From an uncultured Pelagibacteraceae bacterium (GTDB taxonomy: Bacteria; Pseudomonadota; Alphaproteobacteria; Pelagibacterales; Pelagibacteraceae), in assembly GCA_902592935.1 (NCBI GenBank), contig CACJGD010000003.1:4258-68257 (forward strand): a DNA stretch of 64,000 nt, given 5' to 3'. The notes under the pieces are model-generated. The model was not told the DNA's origin and ran no database searches. It was given only the letters and a program-made list of their open reading frames with translations. Positions 4,683-19,364 of the stretch are shown piece after piece. Positions within the stretch are counted from its first letter, which is position 1, and every line of letters starts with the position of its first letter. The position numbers and the translations under genes are program-made.

Positions 4683-5273
4683 TTATAATGAGCCTTTAGT
4701 GGATGGAATACTTTTTTTGTTTCTTGGATCCATCTCTAAAGCATCTCTTAATGATCTTGCTAGACCTTTATAACAAGACTCAATTATGTGGTGACTATTG
4801 TCACCATAAATATTTTCTACGTGCATAGTAATACCCGCAGATTGAGAGAAAGCTTGAAACCATTCTTTAAAAAGTTCTGTGTCCATCTCACCAAGTTTTT
4901 CAACTTTTAATTTTACTTTCCAAATTAAATAAGGTCTATTTGAAACATCAATTGCTACTCTCGTTAATGTTTCATCCATTGGGATAACTCTATGAGCATA
5001 TCTTTTTATACCTACAAATTTTTTAGCAGCTTTTTTTAAAGCTTCTCCAATTGCAATACCTGTATCTTCAGTAGTATGGTGGAGATCTATGTGTGTATCT
5101 CCTTTTGCTTTTACTTTTAAATCAATCAAAGAATGCTTTGATAATTGCTCAAGCATATGATCTAGGAAACCTATGCCAGTGTCAATTTGGTAATTACCTT
5201 TACCATCAATATTAACTTCAACATTAATGCTCGTTTCTTTTGTTTTTCTAGATACTTTTCCTTTTCTAGCCAT
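4683..5273 (-). CDS. hisB: Imidazoleglycerol-phosphate dehydratase
   Basis: [33 protein letters not shown]. Confidence 0.98.
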
Positions 5274-5327
5274 ATATTTTCAATGGTATACATACATAAT
5301 CACACTATATCAATATCAGTCTAACCA

Positions 5328-5356
5328 CTTGAAGTATCAAAAATAGTTACCATTTA
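5328..5356 (+). promoter_or_regulatory. Putative sigma-32 (RpoH) promoter of hslVU
   Basis: CTTGAA-N16-CCATTTA just upstream of the hslV ATG; resembles the alphaproteobacterial RpoH consensus CTTGAA...CCTATAT. Confidence 0.6.
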
Positions 5357-5362
5357 TTAAAT

Positions 5363-5878
5363 ATGACAACAATTGTACTAGTTAGAAAAAATAATGAAGT
5401 AGTAGTTGCTGGTGATGGCCAAGTAAGTATGGGGAATACTGTTGTCAAAAGTACGGCTTCAAAAGTCAGAAAAATTGAAAAAAGAGATGTGGTAGCAGGA
5501 TTTGCAGGGTCAACTGCTGATGCTTTAACTTTATTTGAAAGATTAGAAGGAAAATTAGAAAAACACGCAGGCAACTTATCAAGAGCTGCTGTAGAATTAG
5601 CAAAAGACTGGCGAACAGATAAATATCTAAGAAGATTAGAAGCATTGATGGCAGTTGGAGATAAAAGTAATAGTTACATTATTTCTGGAACAGGTGATGT
5701 TCTTGAACCTGAAGGGGATGTAATTGGAATAGGTTCAGGTGGAAATTATGCTTTGGCCGCTGGAAAAGTGTTAATGGAGGGCGACATGTCAGCCGAGGAA
5801 GTTGCAAAAAAAGCGATCAAAGTTGCTGCTGACATATGTGTTTTCACAAACGATAATGTTAAAATTGAGAAAATTTAA
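5363..5878 (+). CDS. hslV: ATP-dependent protease subunit HslV
   Basis: N-terminal MTTI (catalytic Thr), [21 protein letters not shown]. Confidence 0.98.
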
Positions 5879-7251
5879 TGGATAATTCAAACGTAACACA
5901 ACTACACCCAAAAGATAAAAGTCAAAAGGAAGAGGCTTCTTTAGTTAGTTCTCTTTCTCCTAGAGAAATAGTTTCTGAATTAGACAGATTTGTTGTTGGA
6001 CAAAATAAGGCTAAAAGAGCTGTTGCTGTAGCTTTAAGAAATAGATGGAGAAGACAAGCTCTTAAAGGTGAAATGAAAAATGAAGTTTTGCCAAAAAATA
6101 TTTTAATGATTGGACCAACTGGAGTGGGTAAAACTGAAATTTCAAGAAGACTATCAAAACTTGCAGAAGCTCCATTTGTGAAAGTGGAAGCTACAAGATT
6201 TACTGAAGTTGGATACGTTGGTAGGGATGTAGAACAAATTGTAAGAGATTTAATTGAAATAGCTATTGCTATGGAAAAAGTAAAAAAAAGAAAAGAAGTT
6301 TTCGCTCAAGCTCAAAAAGCTGCAGAAGAAAAAGTTCTAGATGCTTTAGTTGGAAAAAAAGCAAGTCTTGCAACCAGAGAAAGTTTTAGAAAAAGACTTA
6401 GAAATGGTGATCTTGATGACAATGAAATTGAGATAGCTGTTAGTGATAGTGGTTCCAATGGTGCTTCATTTGAAATTCCTGGAATGCCTGGTGCTAATGT
6501 TGGAATGATTAACATTGGTGAAATGATTGGTAAATCAATGGGAAATAAAGAAAAAAAGAAAAAAATGACAGTAAAAGAGTCTCATGAAATTTTAATTAAT
6601 GATGAGTCTGATAAACTAATAGAACAAGATAAAATTATTAAAGCAGCAAAACTTTCAACTGAGAACAATGGGATAGTTTTTCTAGATGAGATTGATAAAA
6701 TTTCTGCAAGAACAGACAGGGTTGGTGGTGATGTTTCTAGAGAAGGTGTACAGAGGGACTTGTTACCTTTAATCGAAGGAACAACTGTAAATACAAAGCA
6801 TGGTCCAATAAAAACAGATCATATTTTATTCATAGCATCTGGTGCATTTCAACTTGCTAAGCCTTCTGATTTACTTCCTGAATTACAGGGAAGATTACCA
6901 ATTAGAGTTGAACTAGAAGCACTAACCAGTAAAGATTTTAAAAGAATTTTAAGAGAACCAGATTTTAGTTTAATAAAACAGTACGTGGCTCTTTTGAAAA
7001 CAGAAAATGTTGATCTAGAGTTTTCTGATGATGGAATTGATGCTATTGCTAATATTGCCTCTGAAGTAAATGCTACTGTTGAAAATATTGGTGCGAGAAG
7101 ATTACATACCATTATTGAAAAAATATTAGACGAAATAAGTTTTACCGCAACAGACCGCTCTGGTGAAAAGATTGTAATTAACAAAGAGTATATTAATAAA
7201 AATCTTGATAATTTGGTAAAAGATACCGATCTATCAAAATTTATTTTGTAA
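5878..7251 (+). CDS. hslU: ATP-dependent protease ATPase subunit HslU
   Basis: [42 protein letters not shown] end. Confidence 0.98.
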
Positions 7252-12628: not shown

Positions 12629-13445
12629 TGTTTAAATATATTTCATGAATTTTTATAATTGATGCCGCAGTTTCTTCAACAGATTTTCTTGTAACATCTA
12701 TAAGTGGCCATTTGTATTTTTGAAATGTTTTTTTTGCATCCATAACTTCTTTTTTGATATTCTCTAAATTTGTATAATTTATATTTTCAGTTTCTCTTAA
12801 GGAGTTCATCCTGTTTTTTCTTAAATCTACCAATCTTTCTGGTTCTGTGCTCAACCCAACAACACAAGATAATTTGGGGTTTTGTTTTAATTTTTCAGGC
12901 AGTGAATTTTCATTTACCAAAGGTATGTTTGAAGTCTTAAATCCTTTGTTCGCAAGATATATAGATGTTGGGGTTTTGCTTGTTCTGCTTACTCCTACAA
13001 GAATAATGTCTGATTTGTCTATTTCATTAATTAAATTTCCATCATCATGATTCATTGTAAATTGAATTGCTTCAATCCTATCATAATATTCTTCATTTAA
13101 AATATGTTGACCGCTTGGTTCGTGGGTTGCTTTTTGATTTAAAATTTTTGAAAAATTTAAAATTAAATTTCCCAAAACTCCAAAACAAGGAATTTTTTTA
13201 TCATCACTTACGTTTGCTAAATACTTGGCCAAATTATTGTCAACAATAGTATATAGAATTATTGCATTAGTATTTTTCTCTGCATCTTCTAAAATTTTTA
13301 AAATTTGATTTTCTGTCCTAGTAAAAGAATATGAATGAACTTTGTATTCAATATTTATAAATTGAGCTTTTAAGGCTAAAAATATTCTATCTAAAGTCTC
13401 GCCCGTTGAATCTGAAATCAGGTATATTTGATAAGTATTATTCAT
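12618..13445 (-). CDS. ppsR: Pyruvate,phosphate dikinase / PEP synthase regulatory protein (DUF299)
   Basis: SDSTGET, HDDG, GVSRTSKTPTS.YLAN.G, DVTRKSVEETA. Confidence 0.93.
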   Translation of the reverse strand: MNNTYQIYLISDSTGETLDRIFLALKAQFINIEYKVHSYSFTRTENQILKILEDAEKNTNAIILYTIVDNNLAKYLANVSDDKKIPCFGVLGNLILNFSKILNQKATHEPSGQHILNEEYYDRIEAIQFTMNHDDGNLINEIDKSDIILVGVSRTSKTPTSIYLANKGFKTSNIPLVNENSLPEKLKQNPKLSCVVGLSTEPERLVDLRKNRMNSLRETENINYTNLENIKKEVMDAKKTFQKYKWPLIDVTRKSVEETAASIIKIHEIYLNNVK

Positions 13446-13714
13446 GAATAAAAAGTTAATAAATATGTATTATTTTAATTAAATTAAACAATTCAAAAAT
13501 TTCTAAAATTAAGCTTGTAAAAGCTGATATTTATTAACAATAATAATAAATAGGTTAAAACAATCCACAAAAAATGAAACAATCAAAAAAAGCTTCATTT
13601 TAAACAATTTTAGTTACTTAAGATGTAAGTAAATTGTGAATATAATGTTTATAAAAATTAATCACCTTTATTCACAGGATATATTAAAACTACAATAATT
13701 AATAAAGCTTTTAT
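13446..13714. other. Putative chromosomal replication origin (oriC)
   Basis: Largest intergenic gap in the window, very AT-rich, between DUF299 and hemE (the Caulobacter/Rickettsia origin position); exact TTWTNCACA box TTATTCACA at 13668-13676 plus near-matches at 13531-13539, 13561-13569, 13635-13643 (rev) and 13646-13654 (rev); flanking operons diverge. Confidence 0.75.
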
Positions 13715-14716
13715 ATGAAACCTTTGCACAAAATATTAATTAATAATGATACTTCCTTTAACCCTGTTTGGATTATGAGGCAAGCCGGAAGGTACTTACC
13801 TGAATTTAGGGAAATTAGAAAAAAAAACCCTGATTTTATTAATTTATGTTTAAATCATCATTTGTCTACAGAAATTACCTTACAACCTTTAAAAAGATTT
13901 GATTTAGATGCTGCAATAATATTTTCAGATATCTTGATGTTACCTTATGGGCTGGGTCAGAAAGTAAAATTTGAAAAAAATTTTGGGCCAAAATTAGGAG
14001 AATTAAATTTAAACGAAATCGCAAAGATTGATGAAATTGATTTTGTAGAAAAAATACACCGTGTTTACAAAGCAATAGAAAAAGTTAGCACAGACCCTAT
14101 TTTAAAAAATAAAAACACCATTGGCTTTGTTGGAGCTCCATGGACGTTATTGGTTTATATGATTAATCAGCAATCACCTAAAAAAAATTTAAAAAAAGAT
14201 TTTTTTAAAGATGAATTTTTAATAAATAGAATTTTATTAATTATTGAAAAATTTTTAAAGATTCATATCAAAAATCAAATTGATAATGGCGCAAATGTAA
14301 TTCAAATCTTTGATAGTTGGGCAGGATTGTTAGACGAAAAAGATTTGCCAAACTATGTTTATTCTCCAACTTTAAACTTAGTGAATTATGTAAAATCTTT
14401 AAATGTACCGGTGATATGTTTTCCTAGAGAAATAAAAAATTACAAAGAATTTTGCGATATTATTAAACCCGATGCTGTTAGTATCGATTATAATGTTGAT
14501 CCAAAAAAAATACTTAGAGATATAAAAATACCAATACAAGGCGGTTTAGATCCAAAAATTTTGTTAACAGATAAAGAAACTTTAAAAAAAGAAGCTTCAA
14601 AATATCTCAATATTTTTAAAGATCATCCATATATATTTAATTTAGGACACGGAGTGCTTCCAGAGACAGACCCTAATATGTTTGATTATTTAGTAAAAAC
14701 AGTAAAAAATTATTAA
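13715..14716 (+). CDS. hemE: Uroporphyrinogen decarboxylase
   Basis: PVWIMRQAGRYLPE, FSDIL, IQIFDSWAG, FNLGHG. Confidence 0.97.
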   Translation: MKPLHKILINNDTSFNPVWIMRQAGRYLPEFREIRKKNPDFINLCLNHHLSTEITLQPLKRFDLDAAIIFSDILMLPYGLGQKVKFEKNFGPKLGELNLNEIAKIDEIDFVEKIHRVYKAIEKVSTDPILKNKNTIGFVGAPWTLLVYMINQQSPKKNLKKDFFKDEFLINRILLIIEKFLKIHIKNQIDNGANVIQIFDSWAGLLDEKDLPNYVYSPTLNLVNYVKSLNVPVICFPREIKNYKEFCDIIKPDAVSIDYNVDPKKILRDIKIPIQGGLDPKILLTDKETLKKEASKYLNIFKDHPYIFNLGHGVLPETDPNMFDYLVKTVKNY

Positions 14717-14717
14717 T

Positions 14718-15836
14718 ATGAACCAGATTTATACACACCCAAAAAGAAAAACAAAAGTTGTGTTTGTCCAACTCGGATCCCCTTCTGAGCCGACAACTAA
14801 AGCTTTAAGAAAATATCTTAGAAAATTTTTAGGAGATCCAAGAGTGGTTGATATAAATCCTTGGTTATGGAAAATAATTTTAAACTTTTTTGTATTACCT
14901 TTTAGACCTAAAAAATCTGCCAAACTTTATGAAAGAATATGGGATGGAAAAAGCTTCCCTTTAATTACAAACACAAGAGACTTTACAAATAATGTTAGAG
15001 AAGAACTAAAGAAAATCGATCCTGATGGCTATGTCGAAGTTAATCATGCTTTTCTTTTATCACCCCCATATGTAAATGAAGTTTATGATAGCTGGGAAGA
15101 CGATTTAAAAAAAGGCATTGGCGCAACGAAATTGTTGGTTATACCGATGTTTCCCCAGTACTCTGAAAGCACAATAGCCTCAGGTATAGACGCTTTAGCA
15201 AAAGAATTATCAAAAAGAGTTAAGATTCCAACTTTTGAAGTTATTACAAATTTCCACAGAACACATGCTTTTATAGATAACTCAGTAAGACAAGTTGATA
15301 CTAAAATTAATGAGCTAAACCAAGAAGGAAAAAAAATTGACAACCTAATAATTACTTTTCATGGTATGCAAAAAAGAAGAATTGTTAATAAGGGTGATGA
15401 TTATTACAGGCATTGTTACGAAACGTTTTGTCTTATAACAAATAATTTAAAGAATATAAGGCCTGAACAATGCATGATGAGTTTTCAAAGCCGTTTTGGA
15501 TCTGAGGAGTGGATAACCCCCTATACTGAAGACGTTGTAAAAAAATTAATTACTGAAGGTAAAAAAGAAATAGCCATATATTCTCCAAGCTTTGTTGCTG
15601 ACTGCCTAGAAACTACTGATGAACTAGGTCATGAACTCGTCAATGAAGCAAAAGATTTGGGCGGAAACATATATCCGATAGAATGTTTAAACACCAAAAA
15701 GGATTGGTGTAAAGATTTTGCAAAATACACATTTACACAGGCAGAGGGTTCGGCGCAAGATAAAGAGGATATAGAATATCAGTTAGATAAAAAGTTTTAT
15801 GAAAAAATGCCACAACAAGTGATGAATAAATCATAA
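14718..15836 (+). CDS. hemH: Ferrochelatase (atypical for Alphaproteobacteria)
   Basis: QLGSP...YL..FLGDPRVVD, PMFPQYS.ST, TFHG, FQSRFG..EW..PYT, F.ADCLET.DE. Confidence 0.92.
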   Translation: MNQIYTHPKRKTKVVFVQLGSPSEPTTKALRKYLRKFLGDPRVVDINPWLWKIILNFFVLPFRPKKSAKLYERIWDGKSFPLITNTRDFTNNVREELKKIDPDGYVEVNHAFLLSPPYVNEVYDSWEDDLKKGIGATKLLVIPMFPQYSESTIASGIDALAKELSKRVKIPTFEVITNFHRTHAFIDNSVRQVDTKINELNQEGKKIDNLIITFHGMQKRRIVNKGDDYYRHCYETFCLITNNLKNIRPEQCMMSFQSRFGSEEWITPYTEDVVKKLITEGKKEIAIYSPSFVADCLETTDELGHELVNEAKDLGGNIYPIECLNTKKDWCKDFAKYTFTQAEGSAQDKEDIEYQLDKKFYEKMPQQVMNKS

Positions 15837-15848
15837 GAGAAACAAATT

Positions 15849-16376
15849 ATGTTTGATTTTTTAATTATTTATTCAACTACAGACGGACATACAAAAACAA
15901 TTTGTGAAAGAATTAAAAATTTCCTAAACGATGGAAATTTAGTAGAACTTCTCTCTTTAGAAGATGCTAAAAAAGTTGATCTATCTAATTTTAAAAAAAT
16001 TATAATCGGTGCTAGCATTAGATATGGCAAGCATTCTAAAGAACTTTATAAATTTATTAATTTAAACAAAAATATTTTAGATCAAAAAAAAAGTGCTTTT
16101 TTTTCAGTAAATGTTGTTGCAAGAAAACCAGAAAAAAATACAGCTGAAACAAACCCTTATATAAATAAATTCTTAAAAATATCTAAATGGAAACCAAATA
16201 AAATAAGCGTGTTTGCTGGCAAGGTTGATTACCCCAATTACAACTTTGTTGATAAATACATAATTAAATTTATAATGTTCATAACGAAGGGCCCGACAGA
16301 TACTTCCCAATCATATGAATTTACAGATTGGTCAAAAGTTGATGATTTTTCTAAAGAGTTAGGAAATAATTATTAA
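15849..16376 (+). CDS. hemG: Flavodoxin-like protoporphyrinogen IX dehydrogenase HemG
   Basis: YST.DG.T..I, IGASIRYG, FFSVN.VARKPEK....TNPY, FAG..YP.Y, EFTDW..V. Confidence 0.93.
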   Translation: MFDFLIIYSTTDGHTKTICERIKNFLNDGNLVELLSLEDAKKVDLSNFKKIIIGASIRYGKHSKELYKFINLNKNILDQKKSAFFSVNVVARKPEKNTAETNPYINKFLKISKWKPNKISVFAGKVDYPNYNFVDKYIIKFIMFITKGPTDTSQSYEFTDWSKVDDFSKELGNNY

Positions 16377-16494
16377 ATATGCTTAAAAAACCCTCATTTT
16401 ACTCATCTTTTTAATATTTTATTAACTGTCTTGTAATACTTCAAAGAGTATATATATTATTATCATCTGATAAGTCCTTATCAAAAAAACAATC

Positions 16495-17763
16495 ATGAAT
16501 ATTCAAGAATTAAAACTTAAATCATCTGAACAGCTTATTACTCAGGCTGAAGAGCTTGGTATAGAAAATGCCAGTACATTAAGAAAGCAGGAAATACTTT
16601 TTGCCATTCTTAAAAAAGTCGCTGAAAAAGAGGAAATTACTGGTGTAGGTGTTTTACAGCTATTACAAGATGGTTTTGGTTTTCTTAGAGCAATGGAGTC
16701 AAATTATCTTCCAGGACCAGATGATATTTATGTGAGCCCGAGTCAAATTAGAAAATTTGGTTTGAGAACCGGAGATACAGTTGAAGGACCAGTAAGAGCT
16801 CCTAAAGAAGGAGAAAGATATTTTGCGTTATTACAAGTTAGTAAGATAAATTTTGAGGAACCAGAAAAAGCGAGACATAAGATTGCATTTGATAACTTAA
16901 CGCCGTTATATCCAGATAAACAGCTAGTGATGGAAGTTGAAACTACAAAAGTCGAAAAAAAACAAGATTTAACTCCAAGACTTATTGATCTAGTTAGTCC
17001 AATCGGCAAAGGACAAAGATCTATAATTATTTCTCCGCCTAAGGCTGGAAAAACAATGATTTTGCAAAGTATTGCAAACTCAATAGCTAAAAATTATCCA
17101 GAATGTTATCTAATGGTGTTATTGATTGATGAACGTCCAGAAGAAGTAACAGACATGCAAAGAACTGTAAAAGGTGAAGTAATTAGTTCTACTTTCGATG
17201 AACCAGCTCAAAGACACGTGGCAGTGGCTGAAATGGTTATTGAAAAAGCTAAAAGACTAACTGAACACAAAAAAGATGTTATAATATTATTAGACTCTAT
17301 AACAAGACTAGGAAGAGCATATAATGCGGTTATACCAAGTTCCGGTAAAGTTTTAACAGGAGGTGTTGATGCAAATGCACTTCAGAGACCTAAAAGATTT
17401 TTCGGTGCAGCAAGAAATATTGAAGAAGGTGGCTCGTTAACGATTATTTCTACAGCCCTCATTGATACAGGTAGTAGAATGGATGAAGTAATTTTCGAAG
17501 AATTTAAAGGAACAGGAAATAGTGAAACTATTTTAGATAGAAAAATCGCGGATAAAAGAATTTATCCCGCAATAGATATAACTAAATCTGGAACAAGAAG
17601 AGAAGAATTATTATTTGATAAAAGTGATTTGCAAAAAATGAATGTTTTAAGAAGAATAATTGCCCCAATGGGAACAATGGATGCAATTGAGTTTATTAAC
17701 TCAAAATTAAAAGACACAAAAAATAATGCAGAGTTTTTTAATTCTATGAATAAACCAGCTTAA
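16495..17763 (+). CDS. rho: Transcription termination factor Rho
   Basis: [41 protein letters not shown]. Confidence 0.99.
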
Positions 17764-17789
17764 TTTATTGTGTTTTATTCAATTATTCT

Positions 17790-19343
17790 ATGGATTTTAA
17801 AAACAGAATAGTCGAAATAAACAATTTAATAAGCTTAAATAAATTTTCTCAAGCATTGTCAAAATGTGAGAGTTTAGTAAAGAAATTTCCTAATAATTCT
17901 TATATTTTAAATTTGCAAGGTTTAATTTTACAGCAATGTAATCAAGTAAAAAAATCAATAATCTGCTTCAATAAAGCATTATCTGCTCAAAAAGATAATT
18001 ATGCAGCAATGAATAATTTGGCAAATTCCTATAAAAATTTATTTGAGTTTGAAGAGGCTGAAAATTTATACAAAACAATCATAAGTAATGACATCGCAAA
18101 TGTTAAAGCTTTAAATAATTATGCAAACTTAAAAAGAGAAATTAATCAATATCAAGAAGCAAAAAAATTACTGTTAAAAGGTCTTAAAATAGAGCCCAAA
18201 AACATCAATCTTTTATTAAATCTTGCTATTTGTTGTCAGGGTATTGGAGAAATGAATGACGCAAAAAAATATCTTTCAAAAATTCTTGATATTCAACCTT
18301 CTAATACAAATGCTCACAAGCTTTTAAGCACAATGATTAACTATAATAAAGATCAGAAACATTTAGCTGAGATGAAGAAATTTATCGATGATAAAAGTTT
18401 AAATTTTGATCAAAAAGCGGAACTTTTTTTTGCATTAGGAAAAGCCTATGAGGATCTTAAAGATTATGAAAACTCTTTTCTATTTTTAAAAAAAGCAAAT
18501 TCGACTCAAAAACATGATCAAGCCCATGTTCTAGAAAATAGAAAAAAACTATTTGATAATATTATAAAACTTTTTGACGATATCGATATTTCAAAGCCAA
18601 AATCAAATAATTTAAACAAAAATATTTTCATTTGTGGAATGCCAAGATCAGGAACCACTTTGATTGAACAAATGGTAGCTTCTCATAATTCTGTCGAGGG
18701 GGCAGGTGAAATTCATTATTTATCAGAGATTATAAAAAATAATTTTTTAGAAGGTATAAAATTTAATAAATCAAAAATACTTGATGAAATAAAAAATCCA
18801 GAAAACCTGATATTTAAAAAGTATAATAATCTAATAAGTTTTCACAATTTTAAATCAAATTTTGTAACTGATAAAGCGCCACAAAATTTTATGTGGATTG
18901 GATTTATTAAAATTTTTTTTCCTAACAGTAAGATTATTCACTGTTTTAGAAATCCCAAGGATAATTGTCTATCAATTTTTAAAAATCATTTTTCATCTCC
19001 TACTATGTCTTGGGCATACGATCAAAAAAATATAGCTGAGCAATATGTTTTATATTCGAGACTAATGAATTACTGGAAATCTAAATTTAAAGATGACATT
19101 TTTGATGCAAATTATGAAAAAATTATAAATTCGCCAGAACAAGAAGTAAAAAAAATAATTTCATTTTGTGATCTTCCGTGGGATCCAGAATGCTTAAATT
19201 TCCATAAAAATAAAAAAACCCCAGTTCAAACAGTAAGCGTTGCTCAAGCTAGTAAACCTATTTATAAGTCTTCAATTCAATCTAATGAACCTTACGTAAA
19301 ATATTTATCTGAGATGTTTAACATTCTTGATACCAACTTGTAA
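17790..19343 (+). CDS. TPR-repeat sulfotransferase family protein
   Basis: N-terminal TPR-like helices (NNLANSY, NNYANL, FALGKAYED); C-terminal FICGMPRSGTTL.EQ, DKAP.NF, RNP.DNCLS. Confidence 0.88.
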   Translation: MDFKNRIVEINNLISLNKFSQALSKCESLVKKFPNNSYILNLQGLILQQCNQVKKSIICFNKALSAQKDNYAAMNNLANSYKNLFEFEEAENLYKTIISNDIANVKALNNYANLKREINQYQEAKKLLLKGLKIEPKNINLLLNLAICCQGIGEMNDAKKYLSKILDIQPSNTNAHKLLSTMINYNKDQKHLAEMKKFIDDKSLNFDQKAELFFALGKAYEDLKDYENSFLFLKKANSTQKHDQAHVLENRKKLFDNIIKLFDDIDISKPKSNNLNKNIFICGMPRSGTTLIEQMVASHNSVEGAGEIHYLSEIIKNNFLEGIKFNKSKILDEIKNPENLIFKKYNNLISFHNFKSNFVTDKAPQNFMWIGFIKIFFPNSKIIHCFRNPKDNCLSIFKNHFSSPTMSWAYDQKNIAEQYVLYSRLMNYWKSKFKDDIFDANYEKIINSPEQEVKKIISFCDLPWDPECLNFHKNKKTPVQTVSVAQASKPIYKSSIQSNEPYVKYLSEMFNILDTNL

Positions 19344-19364
19344 AAAACCAAGTATAATTATCTT

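What the first reader, a model, noticed from the sequence alone, without database searches (positions are those of the whole stretch)
14718..16376. Apparent in-place swap of terminal heme biosynthesis: atypical hemH plus hemG instead of hemH-hemJ
Established: alphaproteobacteria typically have hemE-hemH-hemJ-rho at this locus, with HemH of the NLGGP...FL.NLF.D type, while flavodoxin-type HemG is mainly gammaproteobacterial. Seen: HemH here is of the LGSP...YL..FL.DPRVVD type, with FHGMQ in place of the common FHG.P and a ~30-aa C-terminal tail. It is followed by a clear HemG, no hemJ is present, and the pair sits exactly between hemE and rho (1 bp after hemE). Inference: a horizontally acquired two-gene cassette displaced the native genes by recombination next to the origin, changing the protoporphyrinogen oxidation step from a heme-binding membrane protein to an FMN enzyme. 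This could be an iron- or oxygen-related ecotype adaptation.
Basis: partly seen in the sequence, partly recalled or inferred. Interest (0 to 1): 0.65.

Follow-up and report, generated by a model that had tools for sequence, protein, structure and literature searches.

The report
Swappable heme-synthesis gene pair in SAR11
In this SAR11 (Pelagibacter) genome the last two heme-synthesis genes are an unusual ferrochelatase plus HemG, one of at least four interchangeable versions that related ocean bacteria carry at the same spot between hemE and rho.

Summary
The order hemE, hemH (372 aa), hemG (175 aa), rho is real, and no hemJ, hemY or second hemH was found.

The in-place swap is strongly supported. 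The nearest relatives (Rho 100%, HemE 87-88%) carry a 32-34%-identical HemH plus hemJ. DNA homology stops at the hemE stop codon and resumes about 50 nt before rho.

It is not a single recent import into this genome:
- Across Pelagibacterales the site holds three HemH types (A, B, C) combined with HemJ or HemG. I saw four combinations: C+J, B+J, B+G and A+G.
- On the flank tree, well-supported branches force at least 17 changes of the A+G label within the genus. An AU test rejects one origin (p = 3e-38).
- The A+G allele is as diverged as its flanks, so it is old.

The two genes have different histories. HemG sits in a HemG clade made of Pelagibacterales sequences plus five unnamed metagenome sequences. 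Type A HemH sits in a cross-domain marine clade, 76-80% identical in Opitutales, MGII archaea and other Proteobacteria, and 86% in a phage-like contig.

The alleles differ in predicted iron cofactors, which suggests an iron-sparing role. That role is inferred, not shown.

Partly anticipated: HemG/HemJ exclusion in SAR11 (2026 preprint) and the same in-place swap in Prochlorococcus (2014).

The parts
13446..13714 (.). Divergent intergenic region between the ppsR-like gene (- strand) and hemE (+ strand). It is the probable replication-origin neighbourhood. This is context only.
   Evidence: The cumulative GC-skew minimum lies at about 13100-13700 and the gene strand switches here. DnaA-box matches are not above chance, so the origin itself is not shown.
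13715..14716 (+). hemE (uroporphyrinogen decarboxylase). It is the conserved left anchor of the swap.
   Evidence: PF01208 and TIGR01464 over the cut-off. Nucleotide homology to hemJ-type relatives runs to 14717 and then stops.
14718..15836 (+). hemH, type A ferrochelatase (372 aa). It has no [2Fe-2S] motif and carries a conserved C-terminal tail.
   Evidence: PF00762 and TIGR00109. Identity is 85-100% among SAR11 A+G genomes, but only 33-38% to type B and 24-29% to type C HemH of relatives. It is 76-80% identical to Opitutales, MGII, alpha and gamma MAG proteins. His215 and Glu298 align with human H263 and E343. No CX(1,11)CX(1,11)C motif.
15849..16376 (+). hemG, a flavodoxin-like, quinone-dependent protoporphyrinogen IX dehydrogenase. 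It stands where relatives have hemJ.
   Evidence: NF008316 equivalog 209 bits against a cut-off of 142, and PF12724. It lies in one clade that holds all SAR11 HemG. hemJ is absent.
16377..16446 (+). Allele-specific part of the hemG-rho spacer. The right breakpoint lies here.
   Evidence: Homology to hemJ-type relatives resumes at 16443-16447, about 50 nt before the rho ATG. The position is equivalent in four other pairs.
16495..17763 (+). rho. It is the conserved right anchor.
   Evidence: TIGR00767 684.6 bits. Identity to the nearest relatives of both allele types is 100%.
17764..19353 (+). A second variable slot between rho and mnmE. Here it holds a TPR-sulfotransferase gene (17790-19343). 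It is not part of the heme swap.
   Evidence: No nucleotide homology to relatives over 17764-19353, while rho and mnmE align. Pfam Sulfotransfer_3 plus TPR. Other genomes have other ORFs or none here.

Best explanation
The window carries the 'A+G' allele of a polymorphic two-gene site between hemE and rho in Pelagibacterales.

The first slot holds one of three deeply different ferrochelatases:
- Type C: alpha-type, with a C-terminal [2Fe-2S] motif in this genus.
- Type B: E. coli-like.
- Type A: a cosmopolitan marine form.

The second slot holds either HemJ or HemG. Alleles are exchanged between SAR11 lineages by homologous recombination anchored in the conserved hemE and rho sequences. As a result, near-identical backgrounds carry non-homologous genes.

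In this genome HemG is the only recognisable protoporphyrinogen oxidase, and type A HemH then inserts iron. Passage of HemG's electrons to the quinone pool is inferred from E. coli HemG.

Shown here: gene identities, breakpoints, allele distribution and the separate gene histories. Inferred: that the alleles are kept by selection, most plausibly on iron cofactor cost, since A+G needs neither the Fe-S cluster nor, from recall of published work, the haem b of HemJ.
For: Gene identities.

Synteny aroE-maf-ppsR-hemE-hemH-X-rho-mnmE holds in 76 of 80 loci across the order.

HemH classes and their pairing:
- Sister family (f2): all 38 hemJ genomes have type C and all 12 hemG genomes have type B.
- This genus: 46 B+J, 25 C+J, 4 A+G plus the window's own genome, and 1 B+G.

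Breakpoints fall at the hemE stop and about 50 nt before rho.

On the flank tree the five A+G genomes of the sample sit in five separate places, with 15 allele changes. With 53 A+G genomes, well-supported branches force at least 17 changes. The AU test gives p = 3e-38 against one A+G clade. The closest A+G versus B+J pair has flanks 92-95% identical in DNA.

Age of the allele: among A+G genomes HemG is 55-100% identical and HemE 58-99%. Cassette and flank divergence correlate at Spearman 0.45-0.74.

Separate histories:
- The HemG clade holds all SAR11 HemG (97*) with A+G nested inside it (98*).
- HemJ linked to type B or type C HemH is intermixed.
- The type A clade spans Verrucomicrobiota, Pseudomonadota and MGII archaea, with the phage-like contig as sister to SAR11.

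Cofactor contrast: 20 of 20 type C proteins in this genus carry the [2Fe-2S] motif, against none of types A or B (motif from PMC8529089).
Against: - Selection is not shown. In a huge, highly recombining population neutral shuffling of equivalent alleles may be enough.
- No environmental data were available. A+G genomes come from several single-cell genome series (AG-, AH-, RIS_SAG) and a cultured strain. I could not map them to habitats, so no habitat link could be tested.
- The flank tree rests on five linked genes that themselves recombine, so the number of switches is approximate.
- The order sample favours complete genomes, so allele frequencies are rough.
- Enzyme activities and the electron acceptor of this HemG are untested.
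- The haem b in HemJ is taken from memory of published work, not checked here.
Confidence: 0.8

Rival explanations
1. One recent horizontal acquisition: a foreign hemH-hemG cassette from a gammaproteobacterium-like donor replaced native hemH-hemJ in this lineage.
For: HemG is rare in Alphaproteobacteria, 4 of 300 genomes. Type A HemH has its nearest non-SAR11 relatives in other phyla. hemH GC3 is slightly raised.
Against: - The A+G allele is spread over the whole genus and is as diverged as its flanks.
- HemG has no close outside donor. The best named outsiders reach 47% identity.
- All SAR11 HemG fall in one clade that also includes HemG paired with type B HemH in another family.
- In every non-SAR11 genome examined, type A hemH stands alone, not next to hemG.
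Confidence: 0.07
2. Neutral allele shuffling: the alleles are functionally equivalent. They persist and move only because SAR11 has very high homologous recombination and a huge population size, and there is no adaptive difference.
For: The breakpoints lie in conserved anchors, as plain homologous recombination would give. A second, unrelated variable slot lies just downstream. Alleles are mixed even among close relatives.
Against: - Three or four non-homologous or 25-35%-identical alleles persist across two families, each diverging in step with its flanks.
- Pairing is strict in the sister family: 38 of 38 C+J and 12 of 12 B+G. Type A is never seen with hemJ in about 60 SAR11 loci or in 5 other genomes.
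- The alleles differ in predicted iron cofactors.
- A 2026 preprint reports that HemG and HemJ distributions go with distinct environmental patterns; I could not see its data.
Confidence: 0.3
3. Assembly or binning artefact: the hemH-hemG segment is a chimeric join or contamination in a single-cell or metagenome assembly.
For: The window's genome is a 52-contig, 75%-complete assembly.
Against: The same arrangement, with SAR11 flanks and SAR11 GC content (26-31%), occurs in more than 55 independent SAR11 assemblies. These include the closed chromosome of Ca. Pelagibacter sp. Uisw_134_02 (L142) and the one-contig genome G130.
Confidence: 0.01

Closest known systems
In-place hemJ-to-hemG replacement in Prochlorococcus marinus (Kobayashi et al. 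2014, PMC4231631)
   Same: A non-homologous protoporphyrinogen oxidase (hemG) sits at the identical position of hemJ in close relatives, with unchanged flanking genes, in an abundant streamlined marine oligotroph.
   Different: - In SAR11 the neighbouring ferrochelatase is swapped as well, among three types.
- The site is multi-allelic and has switched many times across two families.
- SAR11 HemG falls in a clade of its own and was not recovered beside any named gammaproteobacterial HemG. I did not test it against a labelled gammaproteobacterial set.
HemG versus HemJ anti-occurrence in SAR11 (SAR11 Genome Atlas preprint, 10.64898/2026.08.15.744057)
   Same: [quoted passage not shown]
   Different: The main text gives one sentence. 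It says nothing about the locus, the breakpoints, the three HemH types, the linkage of HemH to oxidase type, or the cross-phylum type A HemH. Its supplement was not available to me.
E. coli-type HemG (NF008316, menaquinone-dependent protoporphyrinogen IX dehydrogenase)
   Same: A full-length equivalog match over the cut-off with a flavodoxin-like domain.
   Different: Identity to named HemG (Rhodonellum, Paraferrimonas) is only about 47%. The quinone partner in SAR11 is unknown.
Ferrochelatases with and without [2Fe-2S] motifs (Weerth et al. 2021, PMC8529089)
   Same: Type C HemH of this genus carries the C-terminal CX6CXC motif, like the Caulobacter enzyme. Types A and B lack it, like most proteobacterial enzymes.
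   Different: That survey did not cover SAR11 or the type A marine clade. It found insertion-motif enzymes in the four Opitutae sampled, whereas the marine Opitutales found here carry motif-free type A.
Pelagiphage 'ferrochelatase' auxiliary genes (phrog2954; PMC9599517, PMC11561400)
   Same: Marine phages linked to SAR11 carry genes annotated as ferrochelatase.
   Different: The full-length type A HemH on the phage-like contig matches no PHROG family, so it is a different protein from those auxiliary genes.

Membership tests
HemG (quinone-dependent protoporphyrinogen IX dehydrogenase) | Match to the curated equivalog model over its cut-off, across the full length | tested here: met
   NF008316 209.4 bits against a cut-off of 142. 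Residues 4-171 match profile positions 3-171 of 177. PF12724 164 bits.
HemG (quinone-dependent protoporphyrinogen IX dehydrogenase) | It is the only protoporphyrinogen oxidase in the genome (no HemJ, no HemY) | tested here: met
   No PF03653 match in the window's own genome or in the closed A+G genomes G033 and G130. No TIGR00562 match over the cut-off; the best is 61 bits against 97.85.
HemG (quinone-dependent protoporphyrinogen IX dehydrogenase) | FMN-dependent oxidation of protoporphyrinogen IX with a quinone as acceptor | not testable with these tools
   Needs an enzyme assay or complementation of an E. coli hemG mutant.
Ferrochelatase (HemH, PF00762) | Family model match over the cut-off | tested here: met
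   PF00762 265 bits against 27. TIGR00109 204.6 against 124.6.
Ferrochelatase (HemH, PF00762) | Conserved catalytic His and Glu (human H263 and E343) | tested here: met
   H215 (FHGMQ) and E298 (DCLET) align with them. Both are invariant across seven type A proteins from different phyla.
[2Fe-2S]-motif ferrochelatases | CX(1,11)CX(1,11)C motif in the C-terminus or an internal insertion (PMC8529089) | tested here: not met
   Absent from all 19 SAR11 type A proteins examined, including the window's. Present in 20 of 20 type C proteins of the same genus.
In-place isofunctional gene replacement (Prochlorococcus hemG/hemJ type) | Same flanking genes, non-homologous insert, sharp homology breakpoints, mutual exclusion | tested here: met
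Mobile element or genomic-island insertion | Integrase or transposase, repeats at the borders, skewed composition | tested here: inconclusive
   Partly checked. The swapped segment holds only hemH and hemG, and the borders lie in conserved hemE and rho-leader sequence. GC is like the flanks apart from a slightly higher hemH GC3. No repeat search of the borders was run.

The most novel reading that the evidence does not exclude
The hemE-rho site next to the probable origin is a selected, balanced 'haem-terminal module' in SAR11.

Interchangeable ferrochelatase and protoporphyrinogen-oxidase alleles differ in iron cofactor cost, in the order C+J > B+J > B+G = A+G. They are kept within populations by niche or iron-dependent selection.

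The type A ferrochelatase is a cosmopolitan gene passed between domains of marine plankton (SAR11, Opitutales, MGII archaea, Flavobacteriales, other Proteobacteria). Large phages act as carriers.
Probability: 0.3. Interest if true: 0.75.

Novelty: new variant of a known kind. Interest (0 to 1): 0.58.

Why it matters
SAR11 is the most abundant bacterial clade in the ocean, and iron limits large parts of it.

A site where populations keep alternative, non-homologous enzymes for the last two haem steps offers three things:
- A compact marker for ecotype structure. The alternatives include iron-free and iron-requiring versions.
- A natural experiment on how isofunctional enzymes pair. Type A HemH was never seen with HemJ.
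- A clear case of homologous recombination replacing essential genes in place.

The type A ferrochelatase also stands out. It is 76-80% identical across bacterial phyla and an archaeal group, and 86% identical on a phage-like contig. For a housekeeping enzyme that is unusually strong evidence of gene flow among co-occurring plankton.

Tried and rejected
The context of the metagenome proteins was therefore taken from the search for related loci.
- The AlphaFold2 model of type A HemH, built from a 7-sequence alignment, was poor (mean pLDDT 58) and was not used. The role of the conserved C-terminal tail remains open.
- The promoter and terminator scan was no better than shuffles in this AT-rich DNA.
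- DnaA-box matches were at chance level, so the origin is only inferred from GC skew.
- The supplement of the SAR11 Genome Atlas preprint is not held, so its environmental correlations could not be checked.
- The INPHARED phage collection has only distant (32-38%) HemH.
- I considered and rejected the idea that the non-SAR11 type A contigs are mis-binned SAR11 DNA. They have 39-56% GC, no SAR11 flanks and lineage-typical neighbours such as sulfatase, class-I aldolase and hemF.
- I considered that type B HemH is foreign to Alphaproteobacteria. This was rejected, because type-B-like proteins (40-68% identity) occur in about 60 of 300 sampled genomes.
- An anaerobic-adaptation reading is weakened. 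O2-dependent HemF is present and no HemN was found, although the genome is 75% complete.

Full report
**1. What is in the window**

The + strand carries hemE (13715-14716), hemH (14718-15836, 372 aa), hemG (15849-16376, 175 aa) and rho (16495-17763). A TPR-sulfotransferase gene and mnmE, mnmG, rsmG, parA and parB follow. Upstream on the - strand lie a ppsR-like kinase gene, maf and aroE.

All four central assignments pass curated cut-offs. HemG matches the equivalog model NF008316 at 209 bits against a cut-off of 142.

GC is about 25-33% throughout. The window's genome is a 935-kb, 52-contig, 75%-complete Pelagibacter (SAR11) assembly. It has no hemJ and no second true hemH. It has HemF, and no HemN was found.

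**2. The locus across relatives**

I searched 151 genomes of the order. hemJ was found in 122 and hemG over the cut-off in 18, never together.

A search with the window's HemH sorts the order's ferrochelatases into three classes:
- Type A: 88-100% identical, 370-372 aa.
- Type B: 33-38% identical, about 330-346 aa, with motifs like NLGTPD...FLSDRRVIE.
- Type C: 24-29% identical, about 340-350 aa, with the alpha-type NLGGPD...FLFNLFNDP (sequences).

In the sister family all 38 hemJ genomes have type C and all 12 hemG genomes have type B. In the window's genus the sample holds 46 B+J, 25 C+J, 4 A+G plus the window's own genome, and 1 B+G. One of the 25 C+J genomes, G111, is an unpublished genome. 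It enters only these tallies.

I fetched 13-kb regions from 80 genomes. The order aroE-maf-ppsR-hemE-hemH-X-rho-(variable)-mnmE holds everywhere except in one genus, where hemH is not next to rho.

**3. In-place replacement**

By flanking proteins the window's nearest relatives are G077, G091 and G059 (Rho 100%, HemE 87-88%, MnmE 91-93%). They carry type B HemH (32-34% identical) plus hemJ.

Nucleotide homology to them runs without a break to 14717, the base after the hemE stop codon. It resumes at 16443-16447, about 50 nt before the rho start codon. Four other A+G versus hemJ pairs break at the same places. The closest pair has flanks 92-95% identical in DNA.

The replaced unit is therefore hemH, the oxidase gene and the first 70 nt or so of the spacer. 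Recombination anchored in hemE and the rho leader is the simplest mechanism. No other gene lies in the swapped segment.

**4. Not one event**

On a tree of concatenated flanking proteins (AroE, Maf, PpsR, Rho, MnmE) the five A+G genomes of the unbiased sample sit in five separate places. The four allele types need 15 changes.

After adding 48 further A+G single-cell genomes, well-supported branches force at least 17 changes of the A+G label. An AU test rejects a single A+G clade at p = 3e-38.

The allele is also old. Among A+G genomes HemG is 55-100% identical, as diverged as HemE (58-99%). Cassette divergence tracks flank divergence at Spearman 0.45-0.74, about as well as the flanks track each other.

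This fits a long-standing polymorphism exchanged mostly among close relatives. It does not fit a recent import.

**5. Different histories for the two genes**

HemG:
- All SAR11 HemG fall in one clade together with five unnamed metagenome representatives (97*). This covers A+G, the B+G genome of this genus and the B+G genomes of the sister family. The A+G HemGs are nested inside it (98*).
- The closest named outsiders reach only 47% identity (Rhodonellum, Paraferrimonas).
- HemG over the cut-off was found in only 4 of 300 other alphaproteobacterial genomes.

HemJ:
- It splits by family. Within the window's family, HemJ linked to type B and HemJ linked to type C are intermixed, up to 90% identical.
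- The hemH and oxidase slots can therefore be exchanged separately.

HemH:
- Type C splits cleanly by family.
- Type B has two subclades.
- Type-B-like proteins occur in about 60 of 300 alphaproteobacterial genomes, so type B is not foreign to the class.

**6. Type A ferrochelatase is a cross-domain marine gene**

The protein search returned hits of 74-80% identity, some named Opitutae or Euryarchaeota. The genome scan returned several groups:
- More than 55 Pelagibacteraceae assemblies at 86-99%, including the closed chromosome of Ca. Pelagibacter sp. Uisw_134_02.
- Marine Opitutia and Opitutales at 76-80%.
- Two alphaproteobacterial MAGs at 80%.
- A gammaproteobacterial MAG at 76%.
- An MGII euryarchaeote MAG at 77%.
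- Bacteriovoracaceae at 57-60%, where HemH is fused to an MFS transporter.

The non-SAR11 contigs have 39-56% GC and lineage-typical neighbours, and hemG is never adjacent. Seven proteins from these groups are 77% identical column by column, including the tail QAEGSAQDKEDIEY.

With Bacteriovoracaceae as outgroup, the SAR11 type A clade is one branch inside this radiation. That favours SAR11 as a recipient.

Two further placements stand out:
- The sister of the SAR11 clade (98*) is a HemH, 86% identical, on IMGVR_UViG_3300025137_005831. This 48.9-kb contig has 38% GC and CheckV rates it 13% complete. It carries a phage primase, a DnaB helicase, another helicase, a carbamoyltransferase auxiliary gene and many small ORFs.
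- A Flavobacteriales MAG contig with clearly cellular genes nests inside the SAR11 clade.

None of the five non-SAR11 genomes with type A HemH has HemJ. The gammaproteobacterial one has HemG. An alphaproteobacterium of another family has a type-A-like HemH (67%) and a HemG (54%), unlinked.

**7. How it most likely works**

Shown: in A+G genomes HemG is the only recognisable protoporphyrinogen oxidase. Type A HemH keeps the catalytic His and Glu.

Inferred from established knowledge of E. coli HemG, recalled and not checked here: electrons from protoporphyrinogen pass through FMN to the respiratory quinone pool.

The alleles differ in predicted iron cofactors. All 20 type C proteins of this genus have the C-terminal CX6CXC [2Fe-2S] motif defined by Weerth et al. 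(PMC8529089). No type A or type B protein has it. HemJ is reported to bind haem b (my recall), whereas HemG uses FMN. A+G would thus be the version with the lowest iron cost. Whether selection acts on this is not shown.

HemF is retained, so the pathway still needs O2. That argues against an anoxia adaptation.

The strict pairings may reflect enzyme compatibility or plain linkage. These pairings are type A never with HemJ, type C only with HemJ, and perfect C+J against B+G in the sister family.

**8. Comparison with what is known**

- Kobayashi et al. (PMC4231631) described hemG sitting exactly in the place of hemJ in two Prochlorococcus strains.
- A 2026 preprint notes in one sentence that HemG and HemJ exclude each other in SAR11.
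- Pelagiphage 'ferrochelatase' auxiliary genes are a different family.

In the papers I could search, I found no description of the following:
- the coupled ferrochelatase polymorphism;
- the precise breakpoints;
- the many switches;
- the cross-domain type A clade;
- the phage-like carrier.

**9. Verdict**

The finding is real and the in-place swap is correct. The 'single horizontally acquired cassette' reading should give way to an old, recombining, multi-allelic site. It is a new variant of a known kind of event and of moderate to good interest.

Noticed in passing
window 17764-19353: A second hypervariable slot lies between rho and mnmE. This genome has a TPR-sulfotransferase gene there. 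Close relatives show no homology over the stretch and carry other ORFs of about 520-570 aa, or nothing.
   Followed up: partly
G061:C1:1292182-1292609 and G081:C1:1273974-1274400 (loci L066, L072): Two one-contig Pelagibacter genomes of the C+J type have hemJ interrupted by stop codons (TGA plus TAA; TAG). No hemG was found in them. This is either sequencing error or genomes without an intact protoporphyrinogen oxidase.
   Followed up: no
L180-L183 (IMGVR_UViG_3300025137_005831, 48.9 kb): This phage-like contig (primase, DnaB helicase, carbamoyltransferase auxiliary gene; CheckV 13% complete, so possibly a very large phage) encodes a full-length type A ferrochelatase, 86% identical to the window's. 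Next to it lie a CN-hydrolase gene and a TonB-dependent-receptor-like gene.
   Followed up: partly
L132 (PBJD01000041.1, Flavobacteriales MAG), hemH at 5001-6119: A type A hemH that nests inside the SAR11 clade (89% identical) sits next to a bacterial nitric-oxide-synthase oxygenase gene, a sigma-54 response regulator gene and alaS. It looks like a transfer from SAR11 into another phylum, or a binning error.
   Followed up: partly
L174 3970-6414 and L176 (Bacteriovoracaceae MAGs): Here ferrochelatase is fused to a C-terminal MFS transporter domain, giving proteins of 803-814 aa. These are the closest outgroup of the type A clade.
   Followed up: no
L167 136-3577 (MGII euryarchaeote MAG): Type A hemH lies beside an amine-oxidase-like (HemY-like) gene and hemF. 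This marine archaeon therefore appears to have a bacterial-style aerobic haem cluster.
   Followed up: no
window 13446-13714: The cumulative GC-skew minimum and the strand switch lie between the ppsR-like gene and hemE, the arrangement I recall for the Caulobacter origin. The swap site is therefore about 1 kb from the probable origin. DnaA boxes are not enriched.
   Followed up: partly
L079-L082 (genus g2 of the same family): In this genus hemE-hemH is followed by a 273-aa ORF and a 141-aa ORF that may be HemJ, and the group is not next to rho. It is the only break of the locus synteny seen in the order.
   Followed up: no
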